A stretch of DNA of 61,258 nucleotides from an uncultured Alphaproteobacteria bacterium (GCA_937888635.1 CALARG010000021.1:1-61258); one strand, 5' to 3'; counted from the stretch's first letter, positions 7,750-27,747 are shown. Notes: generated from the sequence alone by a model not told the origin. Numbers and translations: made by a program.

Positions 7750-8760
7750 TCAATACAGATTTTCTGCAAACATATCATCCAATAACCCATTCAAATTATT
7801 ACGAAATTCTTCTCTGTCAGATGCCCACACAACCTGGCGCATTAAAAATTTATAAACATCATCCATTGTTAAATTTGGGATTCCCGCATCACACGCAACG
7901 CGTCGCCACGCAGTTCGCGGGTCAATTAAGTGCACACCGCCACGCCCTGGGAATACCCAGTGTCCATCCTGTGGCATATCCTGCAACAAAACAATCGCCC
8001 GATCTGACAATGGACGCCCATCCCACATATCATGATTAAAATCCAAATCTTCCCACGCCATAGAAAATATTTTTGAACGCGGTGCGAAACCATAAATCAG
8101 CATATAAAACGCCGAACGCAAAATCAAATCTGGCACCCTATCAATCGCCGCAACCAGGCGATAAAATCCCGCACGATTTAGTGGGCGTATACGGCGGTTT
8201 TGCTGGATTTTTTCTAGCCCAACCACCGGGTTCGTTTTCACATACCCCATTTCCATTGCATAGTTAAAAACACTTTGCATAAATTCTTGCATACGACCTG
8301 CGATTGCACGTCCAGAAATACTTGCAATAACATTTTTTACATCTTCTGATTTAATATCAGCAATCTTTTTTTCAAACAAAGATTCCAAATGCCGATTTAC
8401 CGCCCGCACCAATTTTGCATGCGAATCTTCACCACGCCGAACCTTGTTCTGCAAATACAAATCCAAGAATTGTTTAAACGTTATCTTCTTGCGACGAATC
8501 GGGGGCTTTTTCATCGCAGCATCCAAAATATCTGGCACTGCACTGCGCGCATCTTCTATATCCACCTGGGGATAATTTCCGATTAAAATCCGTTTATCCT
8601 TGCCATGTACGCGTTTTCGCACAAAGAAAGTTTTTATTCCACGACTGGTCACATACATACGCAAACGCGGTTCTGAAATATCCTGGACGACATCAAATCC
8701 CTTGGCCGGCGCCGGCAAGTTGTCCAAGATATACGGATTAAAATAGAATTGGTGCGCCAT
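7750..8760 (-). CDS. P4-type integrase-like protein with an apparently degenerate catalytic site
   Basis: Arm-binding (DUF4102-like) N-terminus (LPAPAKGFDVVQD...RLRMYVTSRGIKTFFVRKR...IGNYPQVDIEDAR), a core-binding region, and box I Arg (GFAPRSKIFSMAWEDLDF). The HxxR box reads TMDDVYKFL, and no C-terminal H...Y nucleophile segment is visible. Confidence 0.7.
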   Translation of the reverse strand: MAHQFYFNPYILDNLPAPAKGFDVVQDISEPRLRMYVTSRGIKTFFVRKRVHGKDKRILIGNYPQVDIEDARSAVPDILDAAMKKPPIRRKKITFKQFLDLYLQNKVRRGEDSHAKLVRAVNRHLESLFEKKIADIKSEDVKNVIASISGRAIAGRMQEFMQSVFNYAMEMGYVKTNPVVGLEKIQQNRRIRPLNRAGFYRLVAAIDRVPDLILRSAFYMLIYGFAPRSKIFSMAWEDLDFNHDMWDGRPLSDRAIVLLQDMPQDGHWVFPGRGGVHLIDPRTAWRRVACDAGIPNLTMDDVYKFLMRQVVWASDREEFRNNLNGLLDDMFAENLY

Positions 8761-8782: not shown

Positions 8783-9151
8783 TTATTTTACATTTTGGAA
8801 TTTCTTATCCCAAAATTCAGCCAGCGCATTTTGCACTGCTTTTAATTCATCATGCTGCTTCCAATACCTATCATGCTGAAAACCACGCGGACAGACCCCA
8901 TCACAAACACCGCCAAAAAACTCTTCACAATAGTGTGCACTATAAACCGGACGAAACAATCTTTGTTCACCTGTTTTTTCTTTATGAATACATTTGATAT
9001 CTACACCATCGCACTTTTCAGAAATCTGTTTATGACGAAAGTCCCGCTCTCCACGCAATAACTTGGCCTTTTTGCGCAGATTCCAATATTCATTCCAATC
9101 TGCAACCATCTGATTAAACGGTGTTTCAACAATATAACTATATAAACTCAT
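8783..9151 (-). CDS. Hypothetical Cys-containing protein (122 aa)
   Basis: ORF between lepA and the integrase-like gene, 19-22 nt gaps. No family recognised. Confidence 0.45.
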   Translation of the reverse strand: MSLYSYIVETPFNQMVADWNEYWNLRKKAKLLRGERDFRHKQISEKCDGVDIKCIHKEKTGEQRLFRPVYSAHYCEEFFGGVCDGVCPRGFQHDRYWKQHDELKAVQNALAEFWDKKFQNVK

Positions 9152-12554: not shown

Positions 12555-12869
12555 TTATAACAAATTATTCAAATCTTCATACAAATCACGCCATTGTGGG
12601 TTAAAATTTTCTATCAAATCCTTTTTCCAATTCCTTTGCCATTCTTTTAAACGCTTCTCATGACGTATTGCACGGTTTACATCCGTAAATCGCTCAAAGT
12701 AAACTAATTTATCAACATTATACCTGCTGGTAAATCCAGGCAACAAATGATTTTTATGTTCAAAAACACGTTGTGCTAAATTACTGGTAAACCCAACATA
12801 CAGCGTTCCATTCCTGGAACTGGCCATAATATAAACATAGTAATACTTTTCTGCTGTCCACATAAACAT
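12555..12869 (-). CDS. GIY-YIG nuclease-superfamily protein (small stand-alone URI domain)
   Basis: YYVYIMASSRNGTLYVGFTSNLAQRVFEHK...RHEKRLKEW. The N-terminal ORF extension runs into the repeat and is probably not translated. Confidence 0.85.
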   Translation of the reverse strand: MFMWTAEKYYYVYIMASSRNGTLYVGFTSNLAQRVFEHKNHLLPGFTSRYNVDKLVYFERFTDVNRAIRHEKRLKEWQRNWKKDLIENFNPQWRDLYEDLNNLL

Positions 12870-12881
12870 CAGAATACATAA

Positions 12882-12912
12882 CCTGGGTCCCGTGGTCAAG
12901 CCACGGGATGAC
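12882..12912. repeat. REP-like unit, inverted copy of 12517-12547
   Basis: Its reverse complement differs from 12517-12547 at 2 of 31 positions. Confidence 0.6.
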
Positions 12913-12954
12913 AATTTTCTGAATAAAAATTTCAAACAAAACAAAAAGAAAACT

Positions 12955-12983
12955 CAAACAAAAAACCGGGCACACACCCGGTT
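12955..12983 (-). terminator. Rho-independent terminator after fibre gene P1
   Basis: ACCGGG-CACACA-CCCGGT with T6 on the minus strand. Confidence 0.65.
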
Positions 12984-13002
12984 TATATATTCATTTGAAA
13001 TG

Positions 13003-14250
13003 TTATTTAACAATAGATTCCCATTTCAAACCTTTAGTTGCATTATCATATACCAATGCACATGTTGCAGTACCATTTTCACAAGCTTCAGGCACATTCA
13101 TCTTTGCAACCGGTGTTAACGCTGCACGTGATACAGAAATTACACCATCCACTTCCGAAACAGCAGATACATATTCACCTGCGACAGCAGTATCTGCCTT
13201 ATCTAAAGCTTCAATTTTTGATTTTGCATCTGCTTTTGCATCAGCCAAAGCTTGGTCTGCTTTTGATTTTGCATCTGCCGCTGCAGTAGAAATCGCTTCA
13301 GACTTTGCCGTTGCAATTGCTGTATTCATACCTGTTGTATTAGTATAATTCTTCAACTGCTCAGTAGTAAACGACTTCGCATTTGATTCCGCTGTATTCG
13401 CCTTTGATGCCGCATCTGTCGCTGCCGCTGCTTGTGCATTTGCAATTGCGGTTGCAACATCTGTCGCGCCATCCGCTAATGTACCAATTTTATTATCAAT
13501 CTGCTTTGAAACTGAATTATCACCAGTATTTAATGCGTCAATCTGTCCCTGCAATTCCGTTTTTGCTGCACTAACCTGACTGGTCGTCTCTCCCTTTGCC
13601 GCTGCAACCGCTTCAGACTTTGCCGTTGCAATATCACCAGTCAAAGTTGTTTTTTGCGAGGCCAACTCTTCCTTGGTTGCAGAATTTGTTTCCAAGTTCG
13701 CAACATCTAATTTTAAACCAGCAACATCTTGCTTTGTCCCTGACAACGCATTGGTAATTCTGGTATCAACATCGTTCGTCATGACTTCCAGCTTATTTTT
13801 TACATACCCTGCTACAGCCGCGGTTGTCGGCGCAACTGTTGAAGTATCATTCTTGTTTTCTCCATTCTCATTAATTTGCCCAACCAAATCACCCGTGGTC
13901 ACAGAAACTTTACCATCTGTTTCTGACACTGTCTTAACATATTTACCATCTGCAACAGTAATCGTATCAACATCTAACCCTTGAACAGCCGCAGCAATTT
14001 GTGTTGAAATAGAACCATTTGCACCACCAATCGCAGCAACATCCGCTTGCAATTTCGTAATATCGCCCTGATTCTTTGTGTTATCAGTTTCCAAACTTGT
14101 AACACGTGTGTTCATTGCATTATTATACCCTGTTGCTGTTGCTTCTGCTGCCTGCTTCGCTTTATCAACATAGTCTGTTGATGCGATATCCGCGTTTGCT
14201 GCGGTAACCGCCATCATCGCAACCAAAGATGCTGTTAAGATTTTTTTCAT
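13003..14250 (-). CDS. Secreted fibre-like protein P1 (415 aa), tail-fibre-type modules
   Basis: Signal peptide MKKILTASLVAMMAVTAANA, then DIASTDYVD. Ala/Thr/Lys-rich rod. C-terminal cap ...CENGTATCALVYDNATKGLKWESIVK. Confidence 0.8.
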   Translation of the reverse strand: MKKILTASLVAMMAVTAANADIASTDYVDKAKQAAEATATGYNNAMNTRVTSLETDNTKNQGDITKLQADVAAIGGANGSISTQIAAAVQGLDVDTITVADGKYVKTVSETDGKVSVTTGDLVGQINENGENKNDTSTVAPTTAAVAGYVKNKLEVMTNDVDTRITNALSGTKQDVAGLKLDVANLETNSATKEELASQKTTLTGDIATAKSEAVAAAKGETTSQVSAAKTELQGQIDALNTGDNSVSKQIDNKIGTLADGATDVATAIANAQAAAATDAASKANTAESNAKSFTTEQLKNYTNTTGMNTAIATAKSEAISTAAADAKSKADQALADAKADAKSKIEALDKADTAVAGEYVSAVSEVDGVISVSRAALTPVAKMNVPEACENGTATCALVYDNATKGLKWESIVK

Positions 14251-14305
14251 GTTTTCCTTCCTTTCTTTTTGTTTGTTTTGTTTATTCTCTCATTTGATAT
14301 GATTT

Positions 14306-14335
14306 ATTTTATCATAAAATGCGAATCGCTGTCTA
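14306..14335 (-). promoter_or_regulatory. Putative promoter of P1 with a GANTC palindrome in the spacer
   Basis: Minus strand reads TAGACA-gCGATTCGcattttaTGa-TAAAAT (18-nt spacer, extended -10). GCGAaTCGC lies at 14321-14329. Confidence 0.45.
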
Positions 14336-14347
14336 TAATAAAATTTC

Positions 14348-16024
14348 CTATTCCGTACGACCGGCAATATCTTCCCATGCATATTCATAGGTCACCTTGC
14401 CATCGACAGTAATTTTCTTGGCCGTTAATACAAATGTACCTTCGGCGTTTTCTGATGTTGGCGCCTGAATTGCCCCCGCCAGCAACGAATTAACATCCGA
14501 CGCCAATTGATCTGCACCAACTGCATTTTTCGCAATTGTATTCGCCGTCACGGCACCAGCAGCAATATTTCCTTCTAGCACTGCCCCCGTTGCCAAATTT
14601 CCTGCCTCAACCGCACTTTCACCAATCTTACCCTTGACGATTGCGCCATCTGCAATTTTATCCTTTGTCACCGCATTATTGGCAATCTTACCTTCTGTTA
14701 CTGCATTATTGGCAATCTTACCTTCTGTTACGGCCGCATCTGCCAATTGTGCAGTTCCAATTCCATTGTCCACAATTGAAACAACACCATTTGCAATAAC
14801 AATAACGCCTTCTTGCCCGGTCAGACTAACCTGTTTTGCATCCAATGCCGCCTGCAAACCGTCAACTTTTTCAATTGACAATGTTGGAATATCCGATTCT
14901 GCCAACTCTGCCCGTGACACAGTAATAACACCGTTTTCCTGGGATACCGCTGTTACGAACTGACCAGTTGTTGTCCCATCCGCAACATCCAATCCACCCA
15001 ATGCCTCTTGGATAGAATTTTCAACAGATCCAACCGTCGCGGCAGTATCATTCAACAAAGCAATTGCCGCCTTGTTATCATTAATCTGCGCAGTCAAGTT
15101 CTTAATAGAACCTTCTGCATTTTCCCCACCTTCTAAAATCGCGATAGTATCTGCATTTGCCTTGACCTGCGCATCCAATTTAATCGTTGCCGCTTTTAGT
15201 CCCGTTTGTTCATTCAAATAATTTGTACCCGAATATGTCACACCGGTCACATCCGCTGCATTTGCCTTTAGATCAATTTCACCCTGCAATTGCGTATCTG
15301 CTGCCTCGCGCGCAGATTTTTCTGCTGCGATTGCATCCGCATTTGTTTTAACCGCACCTGCTGCCAATTCAGAAACCTTGGAATCTGCATAGTTTTGCGC
15401 TGTTTTTAAAACACCAGTCTCGGCATTATTAATCGCCGCAATCGCAGATTCATTTGCCGCGACCTTAGCATCAGTTGCATCCAGCGCAGTTTTATCCGCC
15501 TTTGTCCCCAAGGCAGATTCAACTGTCACCCCATCACCCAGACCACCAATAGTTTCTTTGATATCCGCAACATTCGTCTTCAATGTAGAAACATCACCCT
15601 GCAAGGTTGCAACACCACCTGTCAAAATTCCAACCGCATTCTCGGCAATTTTAACCGTTGCCGCATACGATGGATAGTGTTCATTTTCCGTCCCTTCTGC
15701 AGGCGCAACAACAGCACCATTTGCGTCTGTCTTAACCAAATTAGCCTTTACCTGTTGGTCTGCAACCGCTGCATTAACCGCCGCATAAATATCAGCCGCC
15801 GTCACCAGGTTTGTCCCCTGTTCAGATACAGCACCTGTTTCAACAGACACAATATTATTTTCAATCTTTACCGGCCCAGTTGCGGTCATTTTTGTTTGCA
15901 CATCCGCCAATTCTGTTTTCAAAACATCATTTAAATATTCAGTTGAAACAACGGCTGCATCTGCAACACCCGCAGACACCAGCCCCAACAGTACAGAAAA
16001 AATACCCGCAGTTAATTTTCTCAT
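14348..16024 (-). CDS. Secreted fibre-like protein P2 (558 aa)
   Basis: Signal peptide MRKLTAGIFSVLLGLVSAGVADA, then AVVSTEYLNDV. Eight decapeptide repeats (xxAVTxGKIA). Cap ...GTFVLTAKKITVDGKVTYEYAWEDI. Confidence 0.8.
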   Translation of the reverse strand: MRKLTAGIFSVLLGLVSAGVADAAVVSTEYLNDVLKTELADVQTKMTATGPVKIENNIVSVETGAVSEQGTNLVTAADIYAAVNAAVADQQVKANLVKTDANGAVVAPAEGTENEHYPSYAATVKIAENAVGILTGGVATLQGDVSTLKTNVADIKETIGGLGDGVTVESALGTKADKTALDATDAKVAANESAIAAINNAETGVLKTAQNYADSKVSELAAGAVKTNADAIAAEKSAREAADTQLQGEIDLKANAADVTGVTYSGTNYLNEQTGLKAATIKLDAQVKANADTIAILEGGENAEGSIKNLTAQINDNKAAIALLNDTAATVGSVENSIQEALGGLDVADGTTTGQFVTAVSQENGVITVSRAELAESDIPTLSIEKVDGLQAALDAKQVSLTGQEGVIVIANGVVSIVDNGIGTAQLADAAVTEGKIANNAVTEGKIANNAVTKDKIADGAIVKGKIGESAVEAGNLATGAVLEGNIAAGAVTANTIAKNAVGADQLASDVNSLLAGAIQAPTSENAEGTFVLTAKKITVDGKVTYEYAWEDIAGRTE

Positions 16025-16054
16025 AATATTCCCTTCCTTTCTTTCGTATGGTAC

Positions 16055-16084
16055 ATTATATCATATTTGCCCGAATCGTGTAAA
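16055..16084 (-). promoter_or_regulatory. Putative promoter of P2 with a GANTC motif in the spacer
   Basis: Minus strand reads TTTACA-CGATTCGggcaaataTGa-TATAAT (18-nt spacer). Confidence 0.5.
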
Positions 16085-16111
16085 GACCAAAAAAAACACT
16101 TCTATATTTTT

Positions 16112-16144
16112 ATAAAAAAAACAGGGGCATTTTTTGCCCCTGTG
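16112..16144 (-). terminator. Rho-independent terminator after P3
   Basis: ACAGGGGCA-TTTTT-TGCCCCTGT with T8 on the minus strand. Confidence 0.7.
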
Positions 16145-16161
16145 TATTAGTCAAAAAATAA

Positions 16162-17094
16162 TTATAACGATAAAGCCAATTCCATCCAATATGGATCACC
16201 ATTCTGATCAACTGACAAAACACATTTTGCATGTGCACAATTTGTACCTGGTTTTGGAACCGCATAACCTTCAACTGTTTTTTTTGCAGTATTAGCGACC
16301 GACCCTTCTTCGGTATCAGCAGCATTCAATGTCGCAATTGCACCCTGATTGGTAACCGCAATTTCATTTGTCTTTGCCAAACCTTTTTCTGTATCGTTCA
16401 CAGCGTTTGTCAAATTCGTTAAATCAGTTGCCGATGCCTTGGTTGCGATATCCGCTTTATTCTGCGCAATATCTGCTTTGACCTGTGTATCATCATAGGT
16501 TGCAGCACTCTGCGCTTCTGTAATCATTTGAACAACTGTTTTATCCGCTGGGACATCACCAATTGTTGTTTTATCAGCCTTTCCACCCAACGCAGTTTCT
16601 AAGTCCTGAACCTGTGACTGCTGAATAACAGCATTTGCAATAGAATGTGCAACCGAACCACTTTCTGTCGCCGCGCCGTTCAATTTGGTAATCGCATTTT
16701 CATTTGCAGTAATTTTTAAGTCCTGCGCCTCATCAACTTCTGCCTGGGCTGTTTTAACTGCATTTATCTGCTGTTTAACAGAACCATCTTTATTTTCGTC
16801 ACCTGTCAATGTTGCAATAGAATTTTGAATATTTTGCATGTCTTCAGACCCAACCACACCTTCGGTCTTGGTATCCAATGCCTTAATCGCAGTCGCCACA
16901 TCAGAATAGGTAGCAGACCCAACTGTAAATCCACCCTGTGGAATTGTACCAACCTTGGTATCAACAACACCAACCTTTGCATCAACATAGCCCGTTGATG
17001 CAACGCTGATTGGGTCCGCTGCGTTTGCCGCACCTGCAACACTCATCAGGATTGCCGCCATAACACCACCAAACATAATATTTTTAATTTTCAT
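16162..17094 (-). CDS. Secreted fibre-like protein P3 (310 aa)
   Basis: Start trimmed to MKIKNIMFGGVMAAILMSVAGAANA (SD GAAAGGAA upstream), then VASTGYVDAKV. Cap ...TNCAHAKCVLSVDQNGDPYWMELALSL. Confidence 0.8.
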   Translation of the reverse strand: MKIKNIMFGGVMAAILMSVAGAANAADPISVASTGYVDAKVGVVDTKVGTIPQGGFTVGSATYSDVATAIKALDTKTEGVVGSEDMQNIQNSIATLTGDENKDGSVKQQINAVKTAQAEVDEAQDLKITANENAITKLNGAATESGSVAHSIANAVIQQSQVQDLETALGGKADKTTIGDVPADKTVVQMITEAQSAATYDDTQVKADIAQNKADIATKASATDLTNLTNAVNDTEKGLAKTNEIAVTNQGAIATLNAADTEEGSVANTAKKTVEGYAVPKPGTNCAHAKCVLSVDQNGDPYWMELALSL

Positions 17095-17170
17095 TATTAT
17101 TTCCTTTCTTTTCTTTCGTTTTTTATTTTTAAATGCCACCCCAAAATATTATGGGGTGACACTATTTATA

Positions 17171-18211
17171 TTAATTTGCAGCTGGCTTAATCGCATTGTC
17201 ACCATTCAATGTGATTTCATTACCGTCTTTGTCCAAAATCTTAATTGGCGCATATGATACAGCACCCGTTGCATCAAAATTCACCAGATATGTGCCCGCC
17301 GTAGTCACAACAGAAACCTTTTTAGCAATTTCTGCTGCATTATCTGCAATCCCCTGGGTATTTGTAGCAATCGCAGCAACTTTATCTGAATCAACACCTG
17401 AATTAACCGCCTTCATCTGTGTCTCATCCAACTTTGCCTGATAATTTTCGCTCAAATTCAAATTATCAATCGCTGTCTGAACATCATCTGCCGTCTGATA
17501 ACCTTTACCCTGCAATTCGGTTTCATCAACATATTTGCCATTTGCCAAGGCATCAGCAATAGACTTTGCAACCGAACCTTCTGTTTGCGCATCTGCATTC
17601 AATTTTGCGATACCCTCCGTATTACCCTTAACATCCTGCATCAGGGTTGCAATACCTTGGCTGCCGTTTCCACCACTCAAAGTATTAATCGCCGCGGTAT
17701 TCGCCTGAATATCAGATTCAGCTTCGGTCATACGTGTTGTCAAACCCGAAATATCTTCCTTGTTGGTTGTAATTTGAGCAACCGCCTCAGAATCAATCCC
17801 AGAATTAATTGCCGCCTGTTGTTCAGTCGTCAATGTATCCTGCTTACCTGCCAAGGCTTCCTGAACAGTAATATCTTCGCCCTGTTCATTCTGCAATGTC
17901 CCAATTTTCTGATCCAAGGCATCCGACACAGACACTACATTGCCTTCTGCGTCAACACCAATCTTCTGCTCCAACGCCTCTACAGATTGTTTTGTTGCCA
18001 ACGATGACAGGTCAACATTCGCAGAAATTGTTGTTGTGCCATCTGCCTGTTCTGCAATATCAATCCCCTGCCCTTCGGTCAATTTTGCCTGCAATTTTGC
18101 ATCAGCATAGTCTTTTGAAATCAAAGACACATCTGCCGCAACCGCTGCCCCACATACGGTCGCAAATACTGCCGCCGCAAAACCAGAAAACATAATATTT
18201 TTTACTTTCAT
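17171..18211 (-). CDS. Secreted fibre-like protein P4 (346 aa)
   Basis: Signal peptide MKVKNIMFSGFAAAVFATVCGAAVA, then LISKDYADAKL. Cap ...AGTYLVNFDATGAVSYAPIKIL. Confidence 0.8.
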   Translation of the reverse strand: MKVKNIMFSGFAAAVFATVCGAAVAADVSLISKDYADAKLQAKLTEGQGIDIAEQADGTTTISANVDLSSLATKQSVEALEQKIGVDAEGNVVSVSDALDQKIGTLQNEQGEDITVQEALAGKQDTLTTEQQAAINSGIDSEAVAQITTNKEDISGLTTRMTEAESDIQANTAAINTLSGGNGSQGIATLMQDVKGNTEGIAKLNADAQTEGSVAKSIADALANGKYVDETELQGKGYQTADDVQTAIDNLNLSENYQAKLDETQMKAVNSGVDSDKVAAIATNTQGIADNAAEIAKKVSVVTTAGTYLVNFDATGAVSYAPIKILDKDGNEITLNGDNAIKPAAN

Positions 18212-18248
18212 TTTTTCCTTCCTTTCCTTTTTTAATCTTTTGAATTTT

Positions 18249-19436
18249 TTACTTCAAAATCTCTACTGACAACCATGTCACATTACCTTCTGCATCAACA
18301 GACATCAGCAATGTTTCACCCGCCGCAGGCGTCCGGCCAGCAATCTTGTCCATTGTGACTGCCTTGGCATCAATATCTGCTGTTGCAACCATATCCTTGA
18401 ATGCCAACGCTTTTAAATCTGCAGTATTTGCCTTCTTGGCCAATTCCGCATTAACAGTCTCCGTTTTTGCATAAGACCCTAATTCTGACTTGGTCGCCAA
18501 ATCAGCAGTTGCCGTTGTAATTGCACCTTGAACCTGTTGTGCTGTTTGATAGCCTGCGGCCTCTAATGTATCAACGCGACCTTCAACCGCATCAACCGTT
18601 TCAATTGTTGCGTATGTCTTGGCAACATCTTCAGACTTTGCATAACTGCTCAGATCAATATTAGAAGAATCAATAACCGCCTGGTCAATCTTGGCATTCA
18701 AATCAGTAACCGCCGTTTCCAACGCAGACTTATCCGCCTTAGTTGCAATTGCCGCCTTGTTATCTGCAACATCCTTTAACAAACCAGAATCCGCCGAACC
18801 AACAACATTTGTTATCTGTTGTGTCACCTGCTGTTCTGTCACATATGTTTCTGATGCTGTTTTTTGCGTCACATATGTATTCTGGGCATCAGTTTTGGTC
18901 AGATAATTATTTGATATATTTTGTTCCAAATTCTGAATCGTTTCTGCCGATACCTTCTTTGCCAATTCTTCATCAACATATGATTTTTCTGCCAAGCCTT
19001 CCACCGATGGGATTTCTGGCTTGTCCGACAAACTGTTATATGAACCCGTTGTCGCCACTTCAGACAACCCCGAAATATTTTCCACCGCCAACGGATTTTC
19101 AGCCGTAATCACATCCTGCTTGCCCGCCATTTCCGAGTGCAACTCATTAATCGCCGGAATTGCCAGTTTTGCCTCTGTGTCTAACTGAATCCAGTTGTCA
19201 TCAGCATCTCTGCTATTCAACATATCACGCAACACAACCTGATTCTCAAAAAGCTGATTATCGTTTGTGTTCATGGTTCTGCTCATAGGCGTAGTTGTGC
19301 TATCAACATAGTCTATAACCTCAAAAAACAAATCATCTACATACTCTTCACTTGCGTAATTTTCCGCTGAATATGCCACATTAGACAATGCAACAAAAAT
19401 ACAAAACGGCAGCAAAAAAGATGTTTTCCTTGTCAT
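18249..19436 (-). CDS. Secreted fibre-like protein P5 (395 aa)
   Basis: Signal peptide MTRKTSFLLPFCIFVALSNVAYS, then YASEEYVDD. Contains VATTGSYNSLSDKPEIPS. Cap ...AGETLLMSVDAEGNVTWLSVEILK. Confidence 0.8.
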   Translation of the reverse strand: MTRKTSFLLPFCIFVALSNVAYSAENYASEEYVDDLFFEVIDYVDSTTTPMSRTMNTNDNQLFENQVVLRDMLNSRDADDNWIQLDTEAKLAIPAINELHSEMAGKQDVITAENPLAVENISGLSEVATTGSYNSLSDKPEIPSVEGLAEKSYVDEELAKKVSAETIQNLEQNISNNYLTKTDAQNTYVTQKTASETYVTEQQVTQQITNVVGSADSGLLKDVADNKAAIATKADKSALETAVTDLNAKIDQAVIDSSNIDLSSYAKSEDVAKTYATIETVDAVEGRVDTLEAAGYQTAQQVQGAITTATADLATKSELGSYAKTETVNAELAKKANTADLKALAFKDMVATADIDAKAVTMDKIAGRTPAAGETLLMSVDAEGNVTWLSVEILK

Positions 19437-19498
19437 TTTTCTTCTCTTATCAATATTTATATTAATTCCCAGCTGTACTATTAATTTAAATCACAACC

Positions 19499-21826
19499 CT
19501 ATATTTCAGGAACAGTACCACCAGAACTGCCACCAACAATGTCACTGGTCAATTTCCATGAATACGAACACTTCTTACTGGTACATGTTGCTGACAACAA
19601 ATATTTTCCAGTCCCTGGATTTTCTGGCGTCGCCATATAGCCTGCCAAATCATCCTGACTCGCAAAACCTTCTGTCGCTGTTGTAATTGCATTTTGAACA
19701 TCGGTTGATGTCTGATAACCAGCATTTTTCAAGTTGGTTATTTCGGTCGTGTTACCATTAACCAATGCCTGCAGGGCATCCAACGCAGATGTCGTTGCAT
19801 ATCCTGACAAATCAACACTACCACCCGATGCAGCACCTGCAATCTTCTCGTCAACTTCTGCCTTGGTATAAACATTTGATGTTTTTGCATATTCTGCCAA
19901 TGAATCAGAAACCGCCTTCAATGCAGTTGCCGTCGCATAGTCACCCGACGCCTGTTTGTTGGCAATTTGCGCTTCTAAATTCGTACGCAGGGTCTCCAAT
20001 TCTTCACTTGTCACCAAATCATTCAACGCGCTTGCATCTGCCTTGGTTGCCAATTCTGCTTTGGTCGCCAGATTTGCCGTTGATGGAATTTCCGACTTGG
20101 TCGCATAATCATCCAACGCCGCACTGGTAATATACCCTGCATCATTTGTAAACACAGAAACATCAGTTGGCACAGTTGGAATCAAGGCCTTGACCCCATT
20201 AATCGCCGCAGTTAATTCCGCATCAGACGCATAGGTATCACCTAAATTATTAATTGCTGTCTGCAATGCAGTCACAGTCGCAACATCTGCCTTGCCTGAC
20301 TGCAAATCAGAAATCGCGGCATTAATTCCTGCCAGATCTGCTTCTTCTAAATAATCGCCCGCATCTTGCTTTGCTGCGATTTTATCTTCTAATGCCTGCA
20401 ATTCTGCACTGGTCGCCAATCCCGCAATTGATGGGATTTCCGGTTTATCCGACAAACTGTTATATGAACCCGTTGTTGCGACTGCCGCCAAATCACCTGT
20501 CTTGGCATAATCGGCCAACTCGGCCTTGGTTGCCAAATCTGCCGTTGCTGTCGTAATTGCACCCTGAACATCTGTTGATGTCTGATAACCAGCACTCTTT
20601 ATCGCGTTAATCTCAGACGCATTCCCACTCACTAACAGCTGCAGGGCCTCCAAGTCAGATGTTTTTGCATATCCGGACAAATCAATCTGACCTCCCGAAA
20701 CCGCATCTGCAATCTTCTGATCAACTTCTGCCTTGGTATAAGAATCACCCTTTAAATCTGCCAACGAATCAGAAACCGCCTTCAACGCAGTCGCCGTCGC
20801 ATAGTCACCCGACGCCTGTTTGTTGGCAATTTGCGCTTCTAAATTCGTACGCAGGGTCGCCAATTCTTCACTTGTCACCAAATCATTCAACGCGCTCGCA
20901 TCTGCCTTGGTTTCCAATTCTGCCTTGGTCGCTAAATTCGCTGTTGATGGAATATCTGTCAACTTGGCATAACCATCCAAACTTGGGATTTGAATTGCCA
21001 AAATCGCATTCTGTAATCTGGTTTCAACTTCACTCAATTCACCCTTTGTTGAATAAGTATTCCCCAAATTATTAATCGCTGTCTGCAATGCTGTGACCGT
21101 GCTTGCATCTGCCTTGTCAGATTCCAGTGCATTAACCGCATTCTGCAATTCCGCCAAATCAGATTCTTCTAAATAATCACCTTTATCCTGCTTTTCTGCG
21201 ATTGCGGCTTCCAATGTTGTCTTTAATGTATTTAACGCACTTGCATTTGCCTTCAGCAACAATTTCGCATCCACATCATCAACCGTTGCATACTGACTCA
21301 AATCAATCGCCTTGACCGCAGCATCCACCACACCAATCGCATCTCGCAAATCCTGTTCAGTCGCATTCAATTCGCTTTTCTTCGCATAATCCGCACTAAT
21401 CGTCGCAACCGACGCCTGCAAACTTTCAATCGCAGCCTTATCCGCACCACCTGTTTGCAAAGTCTCTACTGTATTTTTTAATTCCTGCAATTGCGCCGCT
21501 GTCGCATAATCACCCGCCGCATGCTTGGCTGAAATTTCTGCCTGCAACGCCCTTTCCAAGGCCGCCAAATCACTATGCGTTGCAAAATTCTTAAAATCAG
21601 GCATATCATGCTTTAACAAGAAGTTTGAAACATCCAGTGTTGACTTAACAACATTATCGGAAATTTCAATCCCTTCACCCGCGGTCAGGACATTTTGTTT
21701 CTGCGCCAAAGCATCATCAACATAAGTTTTACTGGCCAGATTAACAGTCGCCGCACTTGCCACACCGGCAACCGACGCCAAGATCGTTGCCATAACACCA
21801 GAAAATACAATATTATTAATTCTCAT
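19499..21826 (-). CDS. Secreted fibre-like protein P6 (775 aa), internally duplicated
   Basis: Signal peptide MRINNIVFSGVMATILASVAGVASA, then LASKTYVDDAL. Contains TTGSYNSLSDKPEIPS and VFTNDAGYITS. ~290-aa internal duplication. Cap ...GKYLLSATCTSKKCSYSWKL. Confidence 0.85.
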   Translation of the reverse strand: MRINNIVFSGVMATILASVAGVASAATVNLASKTYVDDALAQKQNVLTAGEGIEISDNVVKSTLDVSNFLLKHDMPDFKNFATHSDLAALERALQAEISAKHAAGDYATAAQLQELKNTVETLQTGGADKAAIESLQASVATISADYAKKSELNATEQDLRDAIGVVDAAVKAIDLSQYATVDDVDAKLLLKANASALNTLKTTLEAAIAEKQDKGDYLEESDLAELQNAVNALESDKADASTVTALQTAINNLGNTYSTKGELSEVETRLQNAILAIQIPSLDGYAKLTDIPSTANLATKAELETKADASALNDLVTSEELATLRTNLEAQIANKQASGDYATATALKAVSDSLADLKGDSYTKAEVDQKIADAVSGGQIDLSGYAKTSDLEALQLLVSGNASEINAIKSAGYQTSTDVQGAITTATADLATKAELADYAKTGDLAAVATTGSYNSLSDKPEIPSIAGLATSAELQALEDKIAAKQDAGDYLEEADLAGINAAISDLQSGKADVATVTALQTAINNLGDTYASDAELTAAINGVKALIPTVPTDVSVFTNDAGYITSAALDDYATKSEIPSTANLATKAELATKADASALNDLVTSEELETLRTNLEAQIANKQASGDYATATALKAVSDSLAEYAKTSNVYTKAEVDEKIAGAASGGSVDLSGYATTSALDALQALVNGNTTEITNLKNAGYQTSTDVQNAITTATEGFASQDDLAGYMATPENPGTGKYLLSATCTSKKCSYSWKLTSDIVGGSSGGTVPEI

Positions 21827-21850
21827 CTCTTCCTTCCTTTTAGCAACCTG

Positions 21851-22756
21851 TTAGTCAACCAGAACATCAACCCATTCCATTTTACCTTCTGCATTTTTCT
21901 GCAACATCAAGAAACCATTCTCGCCCACAGCTTCAGCCGCACCACCAAAATTCAGTTTGTCAGCACCGACAGAATCATCTGGAATTTCATAATCTAACAA
22001 AGCCTCGTTAACTGTTTCTTCAACGACCAAATTAACCGTCTCTTCTACAATAGGCACAACATCATCTTTCTTGGCATAATCACCCAACAAAGTATCCGTT
22101 TCTTCCTTGGTATAGTATTTATCCTGAACCCCATCCAAGGCCGCCTGCAACGCATCAATTTCTGCCATACCCACAAAGTCAGTTGCCAAATCATAAACCA
22201 TAACATCTTCGCCCTGCACAACCGTCAGAACACCATCTGCATATTCAACCGTTGTTGAACCGCCTGTTATCTGTGATAAATCTGCCGCCAACGCATCAAC
22301 ATCCAACTTAATCGCATCTAACTGTTCGGAAACACTTTCACCATTTTCACTAAAACCAACAAAGCTTTCCAGTTCTTCTACACGTTCGCGCAAATCGTTA
22401 CCTGAACTGCCCGCACCTGGCTTATTCGCCCCAGAAATTGAAGACCCACCACTAATCGCACTGGACCCAGACAAGTATTTACCAATTGACAAACGCGGCG
22501 TTGACGCTGCACGCGTTGAGCCCGAGCGGGTCGCCCCCGTATTTGCACCTGCAACATTATTCACGCGCATTGACCCCGCACGCACAGAATTAATTGCACC
22601 ACCATCCGACTTGGCCGCCGCCGCGCCAGATGCACTGGTATATGTTCCTGCCCCGCCCAGCGCACGCACCGAAGACGCACCAAAAGAAGGCATCGCCACA
22701 GATGCACACAACACACAAACGATTGACAGCGTTGATATTTTCAGTTCATTTCTCAT
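21851..22756 (-). CDS. Secreted fibre-like protein P7 (301 aa) with a Gly/Ser/Ala/Arg-rich N-terminal region
   Basis: Signal peptide MRNELKISTLSIVCVLCASVAMPSFG, low-complexity region (SVRAGSMRV..TRSGSTRAAS), then a coiled segment. Cap ...GENGFLMLQKNAEGKMEWVDVLVD. Confidence 0.75.
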   Translation of the reverse strand: MRNELKISTLSIVCVLCASVAMPSFGASSVRALGGAGTYTSASGAAAAKSDGGAINSVRAGSMRVNNVAGANTGATRSGSTRAASTPRLSIGKYLSGSSAISGGSSISGANKPGAGSSGNDLRERVEELESFVGFSENGESVSEQLDAIKLDVDALAADLSQITGGSTTVEYADGVLTVVQGEDVMVYDLATDFVGMAEIDALQAALDGVQDKYYTKEETDTLLGDYAKKDDVVPIVEETVNLVVEETVNEALLDYEIPDDSVGADKLNFGGAAEAVGENGFLMLQKNAEGKMEWVDVLVD

Positions 22757-22840: not shown

Positions 22841-23521
22841 TTAGAAATCGTATCTTACCCCAACAGAAAATGAATTATTTATAATCATATCCACATCTGT
22901 TTTCAGCCAATATCCACCGGAATACGCAACACCTTCTGCCTTGACATCTGGCCCAAACAAGAACGACAATCTATAACGAAAATCCAAACTTACACTGTCT
23001 GTTAATTTATGCGAATAACCTGCCATCAAATCAAACTTTGGCGAAACAGTGCGTTTATCCGAATCAAATGTATACCAGCTTAAATCAACCTTTGGAATTG
23101 CGATTCCCAAACCACCGCCAACATAGGCATTATTTGCGAAATCATACATCATATTAACCGACAAATATGGTATAGTTAATTTAAAATCTGCACCATAACC
23201 ACTGTCTGTAAACTGCCCGATTAAGCCACCTTCTACTTCACCACGCCAATTTGCATTTGCTACATGCCCAACCGCCAAAGAACCACCAAAAACAGGCTCA
23301 AACGAAAAACTCTCAGATTTGCCATCTATCTCCAAATCATCAGACGAGTATTTATTCTTCCAACTAAGCAGTGACATTTCGCCACGAACAACACCATACC
23401 ACGCACCATTCAACCAATGCGATGGCGCATTATCCACCGGCCTTACCACAGAATACTTTGGCGCAGAAAACGCCGGTACAGTTAACATTGCCAATACTGC
23501 AAAAGATACAATTTTTTTCAT
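22841..23521 (-). CDS. Small outer-membrane beta-barrel protein (Omp25/OMP_b-brl-like)
   Basis: Start trimmed to MKKIVSFAVLAMLTVPAFSA. Alternating beta-strand pattern and terminal ...FSVGVRYDF. First gene of the fibre locus. Confidence 0.75.
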   Translation of the reverse strand: MKKIVSFAVLAMLTVPAFSAPKYSVVRPVDNAPSHWLNGAWYGVVRGEMSLLSWKNKYSSDDLEIDGKSESFSFEPVFGGSLAVGHVANANWRGEVEGGLIGQFTDSGYGADFKLTIPYLSVNMMYDFANNAYVGGGLGIAIPKVDLSWYTFDSDKRTVSPKFDLMAGYSHKLTDSVSLDFRYRLSFLFGPDVKAEGVAYSGGYWLKTDVDMIINNSFSVGVRYDF

Positions 23522-26988: not shown

Positions 26989-27747
26989 TTATCGCCTGTT
27001 ATCCTGATACTGCCGTTCTTTCTGTTGCGCCTCTTCATACCCTTTACGAATTCCTGCCTGCAAAACATCTAAGCATTTCTGAAATCTCTTTTTCTTACCC
27101 AAATCTTTATATTGAGAACATTTATATTTATCGCCCGCATCATCCACTTCATCAACTTCTGTTTTTCCAGAACTAGACAACATAACCGAAAAATCCTTTG
27201 CCAACTGCTTGCGCAATTCGGTCGTCAAATTTGCACCATTATTTGACGAATTATAAATTGTCGTCAAATTTCCATTCAAACATTCAAAAACCTTTAATGT
27301 TGATATTTCGCGATTACAATCATAAACACCCGCCATATGAATATTAGGATTACCTGATTCAAAACGCTCGCTGCCCCCTGATGAAGAAGACGAACCGCCA
27401 CTTGACCCAGATGATGCGCCCTTGGCCTCTAACGAAGTGGTTAAAATCGCCTTTTCCAGTTGCGTTTTCAATCTGCGCAACATAGATTCCATTTGTTCAT
27501 ATTGCTTATACATCTGTTGTGTAATAACCGTTGTCTTCATCGCAATAACATCACGCATCAGTCCCTTGTCCGCGCCAGATGGATTTTTCGTATTTCCGAT
27601 ATTATATGCATGCGTTGAACACAGTGCCAATTCCGCCACAATCATATCATTATCGTCGTTATCACAACCATTTTCCGCGGCAACCACCGGCACAGTCAGC
27701 AATGCCAGAACCGAAAAACCAACCAAGATATTTTTTACTTTTTTCAT
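26989..27747 (-). CDS. Secreted Cys-containing protein (252 aa), unknown family
   Basis: Signal peptide MKKVKNILVGFSVLALLTVPVVAA, a Ser/Gly linker and 7 Cys. Motif LCSTHAYNIGNT is shared with 42716-43630. Confidence 0.6.
   Translation of the reverse strand: MKKVKNILVGFSVLALLTVPVVAAENGCDNDDNDMIVAELALCSTHAYNIGNTKNPSGADKGLMRDVIAMKTTVITQQMYKQYEQMESMLRRLKTQLEKAILTTSLEAKGASSGSSGGSSSSSGGSERFESGNPNIHMAGVYDCNREISTLKVFECLNGNLTTIYNSSNNGANLTTELRKQLAKDFSVMLSSSGKTEVDEVDDAGDKYKCSQYKDLGKKKRFQKCLDVLQAGIRKGYEEAQQKERQYQDNRR

What the first reader, a model, noticed from the sequence alone, without database searches (positions are those of the whole stretch)
13003..22756. Conserved end-caps with variable rods: shared N-terminal S-x-x-Y-V-D start and a ~25-aa C-terminal G-x-[YFL]-[LV]-[LM]...G...W motif
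SEEN: directly after the signal peptide, six of seven proteins start the same way: P1 DIASTDYVDKA, P2 AVVSTEYLNDV, P3 VASTGYVDAKV, P4 LISKDYADAKL, P5 YASEEYVDDLF, P6 LASKTYVDDAL. All seven end with a similar small beta-hairpin-like cap: P1 CENGTATCALVYDNATKGLKWESIVK; P2 GTFVLTAKKITVDGKVTYEYAWEDI; P3 CAHAKCVLSVDQNGDPYWMELAL; P4 GTYLVNFDATGAVSYAPIKIL; P5 GETLLMSVDAEGNVTWLSVEILK; P6 GKYLLSATCTSKKCSYSWKL; P7 NGFLMLQKNAEGKMEWVDVLVD. Three caps (P1, P3, P6) carry a Cys pair (C-x4-6-C) and the others none, suggesting two sub-types. Approximate cap DNA coordinates: 13003-13095, 14348-14440, 16162-16254, 17171-17290, 18249-18341, 19499-19620, 21851-21943. INFERENCE: the architecture is modular. A common base and a common tip, sorting or anchoring element flank interchangeable rod cassettes. 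The cap could be a trimerisation/foldon tip, an OM-anchoring element that docks to the barrel, or an export signal.
Basis: seen in the sequence. Interest (0 to 1): 0.7.

Follow-up and report, generated by a model that had tools for sequence, protein, structure and literature searches.

The report
Secreted fibre proteins with conserved ends
Seven neighbouring genes of a tiny-genome gut bacterium encode exported, rod-shaped fibre proteins that share a short start motif known to begin three-stranded coiled coils and a small hairpin at the tail, while the rods between are swapped between strains; this is a new, unannotated protein family of a familiar general kind, and its anchoring and function are still unknown.

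Summary
All quoted peptides are present. Six of seven proteins carry [ST]xx[YF][VLAT][DNEQ] within a few residues of the signal-peptide cleavage site (chance about 4e-12).

The seven tails alone are statistically weak. Profiles built from orthologues in 35 related species connect all seven (E 1e-13 to 1.6e-3, each above column-shuffled controls).

- **Start motif.** It matches the beta-layer or short-neck motif 'AATKAYVDKAI', which begins trimeric coiled coils in trimeric autotransporters and phage tail fibres.
- **Cap.** AlphaFold2 predicts a C-terminal beta-hairpin for P3 and P7. It resembles the T4 fibritin foldon by eye, but every sequence test for homology failed.
- **Rods.** They are segmented helices with beta-layers and phage tail-fibre repeats. 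They are replaced or recombined between close strains while the ends persist.
- **Locus.** The order 8-strand barrel, then a P7-type fibre with its own invariant N-region, then further fibres, is conserved across order Rs-D84 (Ca. Enterousia; genomes under 1 Mb, partner-dependent).
- **Known families.** No Pfam, NCBIfam or PDB family matches.

Best reading: Sec-exported homotrimeric, fibritin-like fibres whose two ends are trimer-registering clamps, probably a variable surface coat or adhesins. Outer-membrane passage and anchoring are unresolved. This is a new variant of a known kind.

The parts
22841..23521 (-). 8-strand outer-membrane beta-barrel gene (Omp25/OmpA-like, 226 aa with signal peptide). 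It is the first gene of the conserved locus.
   Evidence: Pfam PF13505 OMP_b-brl, E 2e-7. Eight amphipathic strands and a terminal F can be read from the sequence. It lies at the head of the fibre cluster in the related loci that extend downstream, of the 35 GTDB loci found with it and in others.
21851..22756 (-). P7, the base-type fibre. It consists of a signal peptide, a roughly 95-aa low-complexity N-region with three invariant motifs, helices with a small beta-meander, and a Cys-free hairpin cap.
   Evidence: This type is the first gene after the barrel in 28 loci. A profile of the family finds 1084 clusters (50% identity) at E<=1e-3 and none in IMG/VR.
22640..22678 (-). P7 N-region motif 1, ASSVRALGGAGTY, directly after the signal peptide.
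   Evidence: Invariant A1 V4 R5 G8 G9 G11 T12 in a 32-sequence alignment.
22562..22588 (-). P7 N-region motif 2, SVRAGSMRV.
   Evidence: Conserved R.GS.R across 28 species.
22472..22501 (-). P7 N-region motif 3, TPRLSIGKYL.
   Evidence: Invariant R62 L63 S64 G66 K67 Y68 L69.
21854..21919 (-). P7 cap, NGFLMLQKNAEGKMEWVDVLVD.
   Evidence: AF2 predicts strands FLMLQK and MEWVDV, pLDDT 66-75. hhalign gives E 1e-4 to the P3-type.
19499..21826 (-). P6, a 775-aa fibre. Its rod contains an internal duplication of about 290 aa and many beta-layer motifs.
   Evidence: Direct repeats 19637-20116 and 20507-20980 at 75-91% identity. There are 13 loose and 5 strict beta-layer motifs against 0.4 and 0.06 in shuffles. 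PHROG 30808 matches at E 2e-12.
21707..21739 (-). P6 N-motif, LASKTYVDDAL.
19550..19609 (-). P6 cap, GKYLLSATCTSKKCSYSWKL. The Cys pair lies in the hairpin loop, and a 16-aa tail follows.
   Evidence: The only profile link is to the P2-type, E 1.6e-3.
18249..19436 (-). P5, a 395-aa fibre that shares rod modules with P6.
   Evidence: Shared DNA segments 18494-18557 and 18991-19067 match P6 at 72-82%.
19326..19358 (-). P5 N-motif, YASEEYVDDLF.
18252..18320 (-). P5 cap, GETLLMSVDAEGNVTWLSVEILK.
   Evidence: Leave-one-out HMM gives 10.7 bits with 0 of 1000 shuffles reaching it. hhalign to the P3-type gives E 2e-5.
17171..18211 (-). P4, a 346-aa fibre.
18092..18124 (-). P4 N-motif, LISKDYADAKL.
17234..17296 (-). 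P4 cap, GTYLVNFDATGAVSYAPIKIL. Y stands in place of W, and a 20-aa tail follows.
   Evidence: hhalign gives E 7e-5 to the P7-type caps of other genera and 3e-4 to the P5-type.
16162..17094 (-). P3, a 310-aa fibre whose real start is MKIKNIMF.
   Evidence: The AF2 model has mean pLDDT 73 and shows ten helical segments plus a terminal hairpin.
16972..17004 (-). P3 N-motif, VASTGYVDAKV.
   Evidence: S8, Y11 and V12 are invariant in a 53-sequence alignment.
16171..16239 (-). P3 cap, CAHAKCVLSVDQNGDPYWMELAL. The Cys pair precedes strand 1.
   Evidence: AF2 predicts strands CVLSV and PYWME. W278 is invariant, and P257, C261, C266 and L268 are at least 90% conserved.
14348..16024 (-). P2, a 558-aa fibre.
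   Evidence: A promoter-like site lies at 16084-16055.
15923..15955 (-). P2 N-motif, AVVSTEYLNDV.
14507..14716 (-). P2 rod module of seven 10-residue repeats (I-x-x-G-A-V-T-x-x-K), of phage tail-fibre type.
   Evidence: PHROG 892 'tail fiber protein' matches at E 1e-9. tblastn to phage tail fibre and host-specificity protein J gives 33-51% identity.
14366..14440 (-). P2 cap, GTFVLTAKKITVDGKVTYEYAWEDI.
   Evidence: An external profile gives 11.7 bits at the C-end with 0 of 2000 shuffles reaching it. hhalign to the P1-type gives E 2e-6.
13003..14250 (-). P1, a 415-aa fibre with hydrophobic periodicity of 3.65 (hendecad-like).
14158..14190 (-). P1 N-motif, DIASTDYVDKA.
13006..13083 (-). P1 cap, CENGTATCALVYDNATKGLKWESIVK.
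   Evidence: An external profile gives 23.3 bits at the C-end with 0 of 2000 shuffles reaching it. hhalign to the P3-type gives E 1e-13.
16121..16143 (-). Intrinsic-terminator-like hairpin after P3.
   Evidence: A 9-bp stem with 6 GC pairs, followed by a T-run.
12963..12984 (-). Intrinsic-terminator-like hairpin after P1, marking the end of the cluster.

Best explanation
P1-P7 belong to one unannotated family of Sec-exported, probably homotrimeric fibre proteins. The family is found in the genome-reduced, partner-dependent gut Alphaproteobacteria of order Rs-D84 (Ca. Enterousia and relatives).

Each mature chain begins almost directly with a beta-layer or short-neck motif, [IV]-A-S-[KT]-x-Y-V-D-x-[KQ]-[VL]. 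In known structures this motif crosses three chains and starts a trimeric coiled coil. Each chain ends with a 20-25-residue beta-hairpin of the form G-x-[YFC]-[VL]-[LM]...G...W-x-[VI], optionally disulfide-stapled.

I infer that the hairpin works like the fibritin foldon. It would act as a C-terminal clamp that nucleates and registers the trimer once the last residues leave the Sec channel. The two conserved ends would therefore be folding and assembly elements that any rod needs.

The rods between them are free to vary. They are segmented alpha and alpha/beta coiled coils with phage tail-fibre-like repeats. They are duplicated, exchanged between paralogues and replaced between strains.

The P7-type is the ancestral, always-present member. 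Its invariant N-terminal region (SVRxLGGxGTY / RxGSxR / PRLSIGKYL) is the best candidate for the element that fixes fibres to the envelope. The likely biological role is a variable surface fibre coat used for attachment to partner cells or for evading phage or immune recognition.

Shown here:
- sequence conservation of the two ends;
- the match of the start motif to the beta-layer motif;
- the predicted hairpin;
- modular rod exchange;
- locus conservation.

Inferred, not shown:
- trimer state;
- the foldon-like role of the cap;
- surface location;
- the anchoring role of the P7 N-region.
For: **Export.** All seven proteins have typical n/h/c signal peptides with AXA-like sites (read from the sequence).

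**N-motif.**
- It is non-random (about 4e-12) and specific to the N-end.
- It sits 3-5 residues after the predicted cleavage site.
- It matches 'AATKAYVDKAI' of the S. pyogenes prophage tail-fibre hyaluronidase 2C3F, which Hartmann et al. 2016 list as a beta-to-coiled-coil beta-layer and TAA short-neck homologue. It also fits their consensus [aliphatic]-A-T-K-[polar]-[DE] (PMC4786415).
- Further beta-layer motifs fill the rods of P6 (13 against 0.4 expected) and P5.

**Rods.**
- AF2 predicts segmented helices.
- Hydrophobic periodicity of 3.3-3.65 lies above shuffles.
- P2 repeats match phage tail-fibre families.

**Caps.**
- AF2 predicts a beta-hairpin in both a Cys-type cap (P3) and a Cys-free cap (P7).
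- W is at least 90% conserved.
- All seven caps are linked by profile-profile scores above controls.
- In an iterative search, 43 of 45 matches end within 30 aa of the C-terminus, and no decoy was recruited.

**Modularity.**

**Locus and family.**
- The locus is conserved in the related loci that extend downstream, of 35 GTDB species found, and in metagenome contigs.
- The P7-type family is large and absent from IMG/VR.

**Lifestyle and precedent.**
- Rs-D84 genomes are under 1 Mb and lack the TCA cycle, respiration and flagella. The authors predict an obligate symbiont or parasite lifestyle (PMC12306168).
- Bdellovibrio MAT fibres are a precedent for signal-peptide-bearing, phage-like trimeric surface fibres in a diderm (PMC10769870).
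Against: - No trimer was modelled or measured, because only monomer AF2 was available. The P7 model is poor (mean pLDDT 52), and the N-terminal residues of P3 are low-confidence.
- Foldon homology failed every test:
  - no foldon-bearing chain appeared at E<=10 in the PDB;
  - hhalign probability was 0.4%;
  - the caps hit no Pfam family consistently (at most 2 of 80 caps per family; no Fibritin_C among those listed);
  - the foldon scores no better than 5-12% of its own shuffles.
- Foldseek found nothing significant.
- No route across the outer membrane is evident. The fibres have no TAA anchor, no lipobox and no secretion genes in the window. Surface exposure is therefore an inference from hypervariability.
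- The six non-P7 fibres have no obvious anchoring segment at all.
- The barrel's adjacency may only reflect the strong synteny of these small genomes.
Confidence: 0.55

Rival explanations
1. The cap is the cell-proximal end. It docks the fibre to the outer membrane, for example to loops or turns of the adjacent 8-strand barrel. The N-terminal beta-layer end would then point outwards, as in the C-terminal-anchor logic of trimeric autotransporters.
For: The cap is conserved across paralogues and species while the rods vary, as expected for a part that contacts a conserved partner. The barrel gene heads every locus. Disulfide-stapled variants suggest a rigid docking knob.
Against: - The barrel has only about 8 strands and cannot accommodate passenger chains.
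- Many caps are followed by variable acidic tails of 5-20 residues, which is unlike an interface.
- The one fibre type that is universally present next to the barrel is distinguished by its N-terminal region, not by its cap.
- Barrel adjacency lies within a generally syntenic region.
Confidence: 0.13
2. The conserved ends are complementary connectors. The N-terminal beta-layer of one trimer plugs onto the hairpin cap of another, so a P7-type base carries the other fibres end to end. This would resemble the gp34-gp37 segments of the T4 long tail fibre.
For: - Six fibres have essentially no N-terminal segment other than the motif.
- Only the P7-type has a distinct N-terminal region.
- Minimal loci contain the barrel and a P7-type fibre only (L032, L033, L035).
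- All fibres keep the same two ends whatever the rod.
Against: This is pure inference, and no interaction was tested. Both ends are fully explained as intramolecular trimer-folding elements. End-to-end joints in phage fibres use larger domains.
Confidence: 0.1
3. The proteins are periplasmic or envelope-internal coiled-coil struts or tethers, or are simply released, and are not surface adhesins. On this view the rods vary because coiled-coil sequence is weakly constrained.
For: No outer-membrane secretion or anchoring device was found. Sec export alone delivers proteins to the periplasm. Disulfides form there.
Against: - The rods are 300-750 residues long and vary in length between strains.
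- Whole rods are replaced between strains whose neighbouring genes are 86-97% identical. That indicates recombination-driven diversification, not drift.
- The rods contain phage receptor-binding-fibre-like repeats.
Confidence: 0.12
4. The end similarity is compositional or due to chance, or the genes are remnants of a prophage or tailocin tail-fibre module.
For: A window-only leave-one-out test of the caps is mostly non-significant. Parts of the P2 and P6 rods hit phage families.
Against: - The N-motif has P of about 4e-12.
- Profile links lie above controls, and no decoys were recruited.
- The caps occupy a fixed C-terminal position in more than 90 proteins.
- All the proteins have signal peptides.
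- The locus is chromosomal, syntenic across the order and free of phage structural genes.
- The P7-type is absent from IMG/VR.
- P3 has no match in 50,697 phage records.
Confidence: 0.03

Closest known systems
Bacteriophage T4 fibritin (wac) with its C-terminal foldon
   Same: It is a long segmented coiled-coil rod that ends in a beta-hairpin element of about 27 residues. A Pro-containing extended segment precedes the hairpin, and an aromatic residue and a Trp lie in the two strands. Compare [23 protein letters not shown] (recalled from memory) with GYAVPKPG..CVLSVDQNGDPYWMEL and GENGFLMLQKNAEGKMEWVDV. The conserved terminal element serves assembly rather than specificity.
   Different: There is no detectable sequence homology. 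The window proteins carry Sec signal peptides and are chromosomal cellular genes. Their caps may carry disulfides and trailing tails. Their N-end is a beta-layer rather than a virion-attachment domain.
Trimeric autotransporter adhesin stalks and alpha/beta coiled coils (Hartmann et al. 2016, PMC4786415), including the S. pyogenes prophage tail-fibre hyaluronidase HylP1 (2C3F)
   Same: The beta-layer or short-neck motif is shared: 'AATKAYVDKAI' against 'IASKAYVDAKV'. Repeated [YL]-A-T-K-x-[DE]-[LIV] beta-layers occur in the P5 and P6 rods. The proteins have signal peptides and a fibrous, modular, recombining architecture.
   Different: There is no C-terminal YadA-type 4-strand membrane anchor and no head or neck domains. 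In the window proteins the beta-layer forms the very N-terminus of the mature protein instead of joining two domains.
Bdellovibrio bacteriovorus MAT (mosaic adhesive trimer) fibres (PMC10769870)
   Same: These are signal-peptide-bearing, phage-tail-fibre-like trimeric fibres encoded by a multigene family in a diderm that depends on other cells. Their architecture is mosaic, with one conserved end. The means of anchoring to the cell surface is likewise unknown.
   Different: MAT proteins have a conserved beta-rich N-domain of about 130 aa and variable globular tips, some with S74 chaperone-protease domains. In the window family the conserved parts are a roughly 10-residue motif and a roughly 22-residue hairpin, variability lies in the rods, and no S74 domain is detected.
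Omp25/Omp31/OmpA-like 8-strand barrels of Alphaproteobacteria (Pfam PF13505)
   Same: The gene at the head of the locus matches this family.
   Different: No link between such barrels and fibre display is known. The barrel is not part of the end-cap family itself.

Membership tests
T4 fibritin / foldon (Pfam Fibritin_C) | Sequence match to the foldon or Fibritin_C profile | tested here: not met
   There was no Pfam hit for the full proteins at E<=1 or for 80 caps at E<=10. A cap profile searched against the PDB, which holds many foldon fusions, returned no foldon chain at E<=10. hhalign probability was 0.4%. The foldon scores within the top 5-12% of its own shuffles only.
T4 fibritin / foldon (Pfam Fibritin_C) | C-terminal beta-hairpin that follows a segmented coiled-coil rod | tested here: met
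   The AF2 monomer models of P3 (strands 266-270 and 276-280 of the mature chain) and P7 (256-261 and 267-272) show a terminal hairpin after multiple helical segments. This is a prediction only.
T4 fibritin / foldon (Pfam Fibritin_C) | The hairpin forms a trimeric beta-propeller that nucleates trimerisation | not testable with these tools
   No multimer prediction or experiment was available.
Trimeric autotransporter adhesins (type Vc) | C-terminal YadA-like 4-strand membrane anchor | tested here: not met
   There was no YadA_anchor or any other Pfam or NCBIfam hit. The C-terminus is a 20-26-residue hairpin with or without a short tail.
Trimeric autotransporter adhesins (type Vc) | Coiled-coil stalk with beta-layer or neck connectors | tested here: met
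   The motif comparison is with PMC4786415. Predicted helices are, and periodicity is.
alpha/beta coiled coil beta-layer motif (Hartmann 2016) | Sequence consensus [aliphatic]-A-T-K-[polar]-[DE], or the short-neck form AATKAYVDKAI, at the start of a coiled-coil segment | tested here: met
   The family N-end consensus is [IVL]-A-S-[KT]-x-Y-V-D-x-[KQ]-[VL]. Strict-consensus matches number 5 in P6 and 2 in P5, against no more than 0.06 expected.
alpha/beta coiled coil beta-layer motif (Hartmann 2016) | Three chains cross to form the triangular beta-layer in a trimer | not testable with these tools
   Only monomer models were available. The first 9 residues of P3 have low confidence.
Bdellovibrio MAT fibres | Conserved beta-rich domain of about 130 aa immediately after the signal peptide | tested here: not met
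   In P1-P6 the motif lies 3-8 residues after the cleavage site. The P7 N-region is predicted to be disordered.
Bdellovibrio MAT fibres | Variable globular C-terminal tip, often with a Peptidase_S74 chaperone | tested here: not met
   No S74 or other domain was detected. The C-end is the conserved hairpin.
Phage tail fibres | Encoded within a virion or tail gene module and lacking a Sec signal peptide | tested here: not met
   The neighbours are housekeeping genes. All seven proteins have signal peptides. The P7-type is absent from IMG/VR. Only rod segments of P2 and P6 match phage families.
OMP C-terminal beta-signal or other known sorting domains | Terminal aromatic residue or strand motif at the extreme C-terminus, or a match to a known sorting-domain model | tested here: not met
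   The caps end in K, D or L, or are followed by variable tails. Profile searches found no hit.

The most novel reading that the evidence does not exclude
The barrel plus P7-type pair is a previously unrecognised way of displaying trimeric fibres on a diderm surface without a type V anchor. The invariant P7 N-region (SVRxLGGxGTY / RxGSxR / PRLSIGKYL) would fix a base fibre to the envelope. The shared beta-layer N-ends and hairpin caps of the other paralogues would act as universal plug-and-socket connectors. Interchangeable rod cassettes could then be mounted on the base end to end, giving a cellular analogue of the segmented phage long tail fibre, used by a partner-dependent bacterium with a genome under 1 Mb.
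Probability: 0.12. Interest if true: 0.8.

Novelty: new variant of a known kind. Interest (0 to 1): 0.5.

Why it matters
Rs-D84 / Ca. Enterousia bacteria are common in animal and human guts. Their genomes are under 1 Mb, and they are thought to live off other cells, yet nothing is known about how they make contact.

This locus takes about 1% of such a genome. It is conserved across the order and encodes a recombining repertoire of exported fibres with no annotation in Pfam, NCBIfam or the PDB. It is therefore the obvious candidate for their attachment or surface-variation apparatus.

The two tiny conserved ends define a family signature (N-end [IV]AS[KT]xYVD; C-end GxΦ[VL]L...G...WxV). That signature can be turned into profiles for annotating hundreds of 'hypothetical proteins'.

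If the cap trimerises as proposed, it would be a second, disulfide-stabilisable natural alternative to the foldon for protein engineering.

The unresolved questions are how anchor-less trimeric fibres cross and hold on to an outer membrane. Bdellovibrio MAT fibres share the anchoring gap.

Tried and rejected
**Tests that were negative or uninformative**
- Foldon homology was negative in four tests: a PDB profile search, hhalign, a Pfam scan of 80 caps, and an HMM score against shuffles.
- Foldseek of the P3 model against the PDB and BFVD found nothing at E<=0.001. This is expected for an elongated monomer model.
- The barrel profile against the PDB returned only spurious antibody hits.
- The P7 N-region profile hits no other window protein, including the VSRV-repeat protein at 37658-39904.

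**Tests limited by the method**
- A cap-profile search of the 5.8-billion-protein database failed for technical reasons. A cap alignment could not seed a viral-contig scan either.
- The leave-one-out HMM using only the seven window caps lacked power.
- Iterative HMM search from single caps linked only P1 with P3. Profile-profile comparison was needed to join the rest.

**Ideas considered and dropped**
- Flagellin-like idea, in which the rod folds back so that the N-strand and C-hairpin form one domain. It could not be tested: the models' coordinates and contacts were not available, so N-to-C contact was not examined. The secondary structure shows a linear series of helical segments.
- Peptidoglycan linkage through an N-terminal Ala-Asp, as in Brucella OMPs (PMC10787603). 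Only 2 of about 76 predicted mature N-termini start with AD.
- Lipoprotein anchoring. None of the seven proteins has a lipobox (read from the sequence).
- RNA elements. There are no tRNA or Rfam hits in the window.

Full report
**1. What is there**

The region holds seven co-oriented minus-strand genes, P1 to P7, separated by 24-137 nt. A gene for an 8-strand outer-membrane barrel lies upstream of them (22841-23521; Pfam OMP_b-brl, E 2e-7). Terminator-like hairpins follow P3 and P1. Promoter-like sites precede P7, P2 and P1.

None of the seven proteins matches any Pfam or NCBIfam model. P2 and P6, the two searched directly, have no meaningful solved relative. Only rod segments match phage families: P2 residues 406-540, and P6 residues 341-478.

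All seven proteins begin with a classical signal peptide.

Cluster names and the GTDB scan identify the organism as an uncultured gut alphaproteobacterium of the Ca. Enterousia / Rs-D84 group. That lineage has genomes under 1 Mb and lacks the TCA cycle, respiration and flagella. It is predicted to depend on other cells (PMC12306168).

**2. Check of the observation**

*N-motif.*
- The pattern [ST]xx[YF][VLAT][DNEQ] occurs once per protein in P1-P6, at residues 24-33.
- It does not occur at the N-end of P7. Its one match beyond residue 50 in 2715 scanned positions is TVEYAD at P7 residue 169.
- Six of seven having it by chance has a probability of about 4e-12.

*Caps.*
- With the seven window sequences alone, a leave-one-out HMM is significant only for P5.
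- A profile built from caps of other genomes finds P1 (23 bits), P2 (12 bits) and P3 (59 bits) exactly at their C-termini. None of 2000 shuffles reached these scores.
- Profile-profile comparison of orthologue groups links all seven caps at E 1e-13 to 1.6e-3. Every link scored above 15 column-shuffled controls.
- Iterative searches recruited no reversed or shuffled decoy.
- P6 is the weakest member, with one link to the P2-type.

*Correction.* The proposed two sub-types based on Cys content need revision. In P1 and P3 the Cys pair lies just before strand 1. In P6 it bridges the hairpin loop, and the P6 cap is otherwise of the Cys-free P2 kind.

**3. The family beyond the window**

A search with P3 returned 216 proteins. 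Many share the same signal peptide classes, the N-motif, unrelated rods and the cap.

Thirty-five GTDB species carry the locus, as do metagenome contigs. Its order is FtsEX (divergent), barrel, P7-type fibre, two to six further fibres, DedA, RbfA, LepA.

Signal-peptide classes mark orthologous fibre types across genera: MKKDLKIST.., MKIKNIAFSG.., MKKLTAGIF.. and MKRLTSILA...

The P7-type is always the first gene after the barrel. In some lineages it is the only fibre (L032, L033, L035). It lacks the N-motif. Instead it has a low-complexity region of about 95 residues with three invariant motifs: A.SVR.LGG.GTY, R.GS.R and PRLSIGKYL.

A P7-type profile finds 1084 clusters (50% identity) at E<=1e-3 and 175 at E<=1e-30. 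Nearly all of the listed members end in a hairpin-cap variant. None was found in IMG/VR.

**4. What the two ends are**

*The N-motif.* The family consensus is A-[DSE]-[IVL]-A-S-[KT]-x-Y-V-D-x-[KQ]-[VL]. It lies 3-5 residues after the predicted cleavage site.

Hartmann et al. (2016) describe beta-layers, in which three residues per chain leave the helix and cross at the trimer axis. Their consensus is [aliphatic]-A-T-K-[polar]-[DE]. They list 'AATKAYVDKAI' of the S. pyogenes prophage tail-fibre hyaluronidase (2C3F) as a beta-to-coiled-coil transition and a TAA short-neck homologue (PMC4786415). The match to 'IASKAYVDAKV' is nearly exact.

Strict beta-layer motifs also recur inside the P6 rod (5 against 0.06 expected) and the P5 rod (2 against 0.02 expected). 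The conserved start is therefore best read as a known structural element that opens a trimeric coiled coil.

*The cap.* AlphaFold2 models were made of mature P3 (53-sequence alignment, mean pLDDT 73) and mature P7 (32 sequences, mean pLDDT 52). Both place a two-stranded beta-hairpin at the C-end:
- P3: CVLSV and PYWME.
- P7: FLMLQK and MEWVDV.

In both models the hairpin follows a series of helical segments. Trp is at least 90% conserved.

By eye the element resembles the T4 fibritin foldon: a Pro-containing extended segment, then a hairpin with an aromatic residue in strand 1 and a Trp in strand 2. Every homology test was negative, and Foldseek was uninformative. I therefore claim functional analogy as an inference and do not claim membership.

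**5. The rods and modularity**

The rods are predicted to be helical and segmented. Their hydrophobic periodicities are 3.3-3.65.
- P2 carries seven 10-residue repeats of phage tail-fibre or host-specificity-J type.
- P6 contains an internal duplication of about 290 residues.
- P6 shares modules with P5.

Between species, the ends are usually better conserved than the middles. Between close strains, the changes are abrupt:
- Against L005, proteins P7, P6, P5 and P4 are 86-94% identical overall. The P3 rod drops to 35% while its cap stays at 91%. P1 is replaced altogether.
- L008 joins a P5-type N-end to a P3-type Cys cap.
- L040, whose P7 is 97% identical, has only four further fibres. One is a 147-residue mini-fibre built from a P3-type N-end, a P2-like rod fragment and a P2-type cap.
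- All cap sub-types occur on P7-type N-ends.

It points to recombination rather than drift.

**6. How it most likely works**

*Shown:* an order-wide, unannotated family of signal-peptide-bearing fibrous proteins with two short conserved ends and exchangeable rods.

*Inferred, in order:*
1. The chains are exported by Sec.
2. The C-terminal hairpin, the last part to emerge, associates three chains and sets their register, as the foldon does for fibritin.
3. The coiled coil zips towards the N-terminus, where the beta-layer closes the trimer.
4. Both ends are therefore generic assembly elements that any rod needs. This would explain why they survive rod replacement.

Three observations suggest surface fibres used for contact or antigenic variation:
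- the hypervariable, phage-fibre-like rods;
- the partner-dependent lifestyle;
- the share of a genome under 1 Mb devoted to the locus (about 1%).

Bdellovibrio MAT fibres are a precedent for signal-peptide-bearing, phage-like trimeric surface fibres whose surface attachment is unknown (PMC10769870).

*Main gap:* no route across the outer membrane and no anchor is visible. The fibres have no TAA anchor and no lipobox. The barrel has only 8 strands, and its adjacency could reflect general synteny. The invariant P7 N-region is the best candidate anchor, but this is untested.

**7. Rivals**

| Rival | Estimated probability |
|---|---|
| Cap as cell-proximal docking knob | 0.13 |
| Plug-and-socket, end-to-end assembly on a P7 base | 0.10 |
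| Periplasmic struts or released proteins | 0.12 |
| Chance similarity or prophage remnant | 0.03, effectively refuted |

The tests that would separate them are multimer predictions and simple biochemistry on the natural mini-fibre. Neither could be run here.

**8. Verdict**

- The modular interpretation is supported.
- The N-motif is a known motif in a new setting.
- The cap is a new short element, foldon-like in predicted shape but not demonstrably homologous.
- The assembly is best classed as a new variant of a known kind (trimeric coiled-coil fibres).
- Interest is moderate, because it gives a concrete handle on the cell-contact biology of a widespread, uncultured, genome-reduced gut lineage.

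Noticed in passing
window 26989-27747, 27768-29918 and 37658-39904 (all minus strand): Three further signal-peptide-bearing, Cys-rich proteins (252, 716 and 748 aa); the two larger ones were scanned and have no Pfam family, the 252-aa one was not scanned. The 716-aa protein has a long Q/A-rich stretch. The 748-aa protein has VSRV-like Arg repeats near its N-end and EGF-like Cys spacing at its C-end. The P7 N-region profile does not hit them.
   Followed up: partly
L001, L003, L009-L026, L037, L038 (e.g. L003:12872-13750); absent from the window: Other genera carry an additional last fibre type. Its C-end is a different conserved motif, [IV]-P-[VI]-G-S-x-T-x-x-T-x-x-A-x-I-W-[IV]-E, in place of the hairpin cap. 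In L035 this end sits on a P7-type N-region.
   Followed up: no
L040:14343-14786: A natural 147-aa mini-fibre in a strain whose P7 is 97% identical to the window's. It consists of a P3-type signal peptide and N-motif, about 60 aa of P2-like rod, and a P2-type cap. It is an ideal minimal construct for structural work. The same strain has only four fibres after P7.
   Followed up: partly
window 12555-12944 (minus strand): A GIY-YIG nuclease gene lies between the P1 terminator and the DedA-family gene. L040 has a GIY-YIG gene at the same spot. It may be relevant to recombination at the locus, or it may be a selfish insert.
   Followed up: no
window 7750-8760 and 8783-9151 (minus strand): A tyrosine-integrase-like gene (336 aa), preceded by small Cys-containing ORFs, lies downstream of lepA. 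The arrangement is syntenic in many of the related loci examined (Arm-DNA-bind_3/Phage_int hits in L001, L003 and L040). It therefore looks like a fixed remnant rather than an active element.
   Followed up: partly
window 19637-20116 versus 20507-20980; 18494-18557 and 18991-19067 versus P6: P6 contains an internal tandem duplication of about 870 nt (75-91% identity). It also shares 64-77-nt segments with P5 (72-82% identity). This shows that rod modules duplicate and move between paralogues within one genome.
   Followed up: partly
window 17017-17094, 18134-18211, 21749-21826: The signal-peptide coding regions of P3, P4 and P6 are 65-74% identical at the DNA level. Signal-peptide classes are conserved across genera, which is unusual for signal peptides. 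It suggests either extra function or a role as recombination anchors.
   Followed up: no
L001:6549-6953, L003:5274-5678, L046:7638-8042, L047:7658-8071: In other genera a small OmpA-family gene (PF00691, 134-137 aa) sits divergently between ftsE and the barrel gene. The window has no such gene there. Instead, the long form of the barrel ORF overlaps the ftsE start.
   Followed up: no
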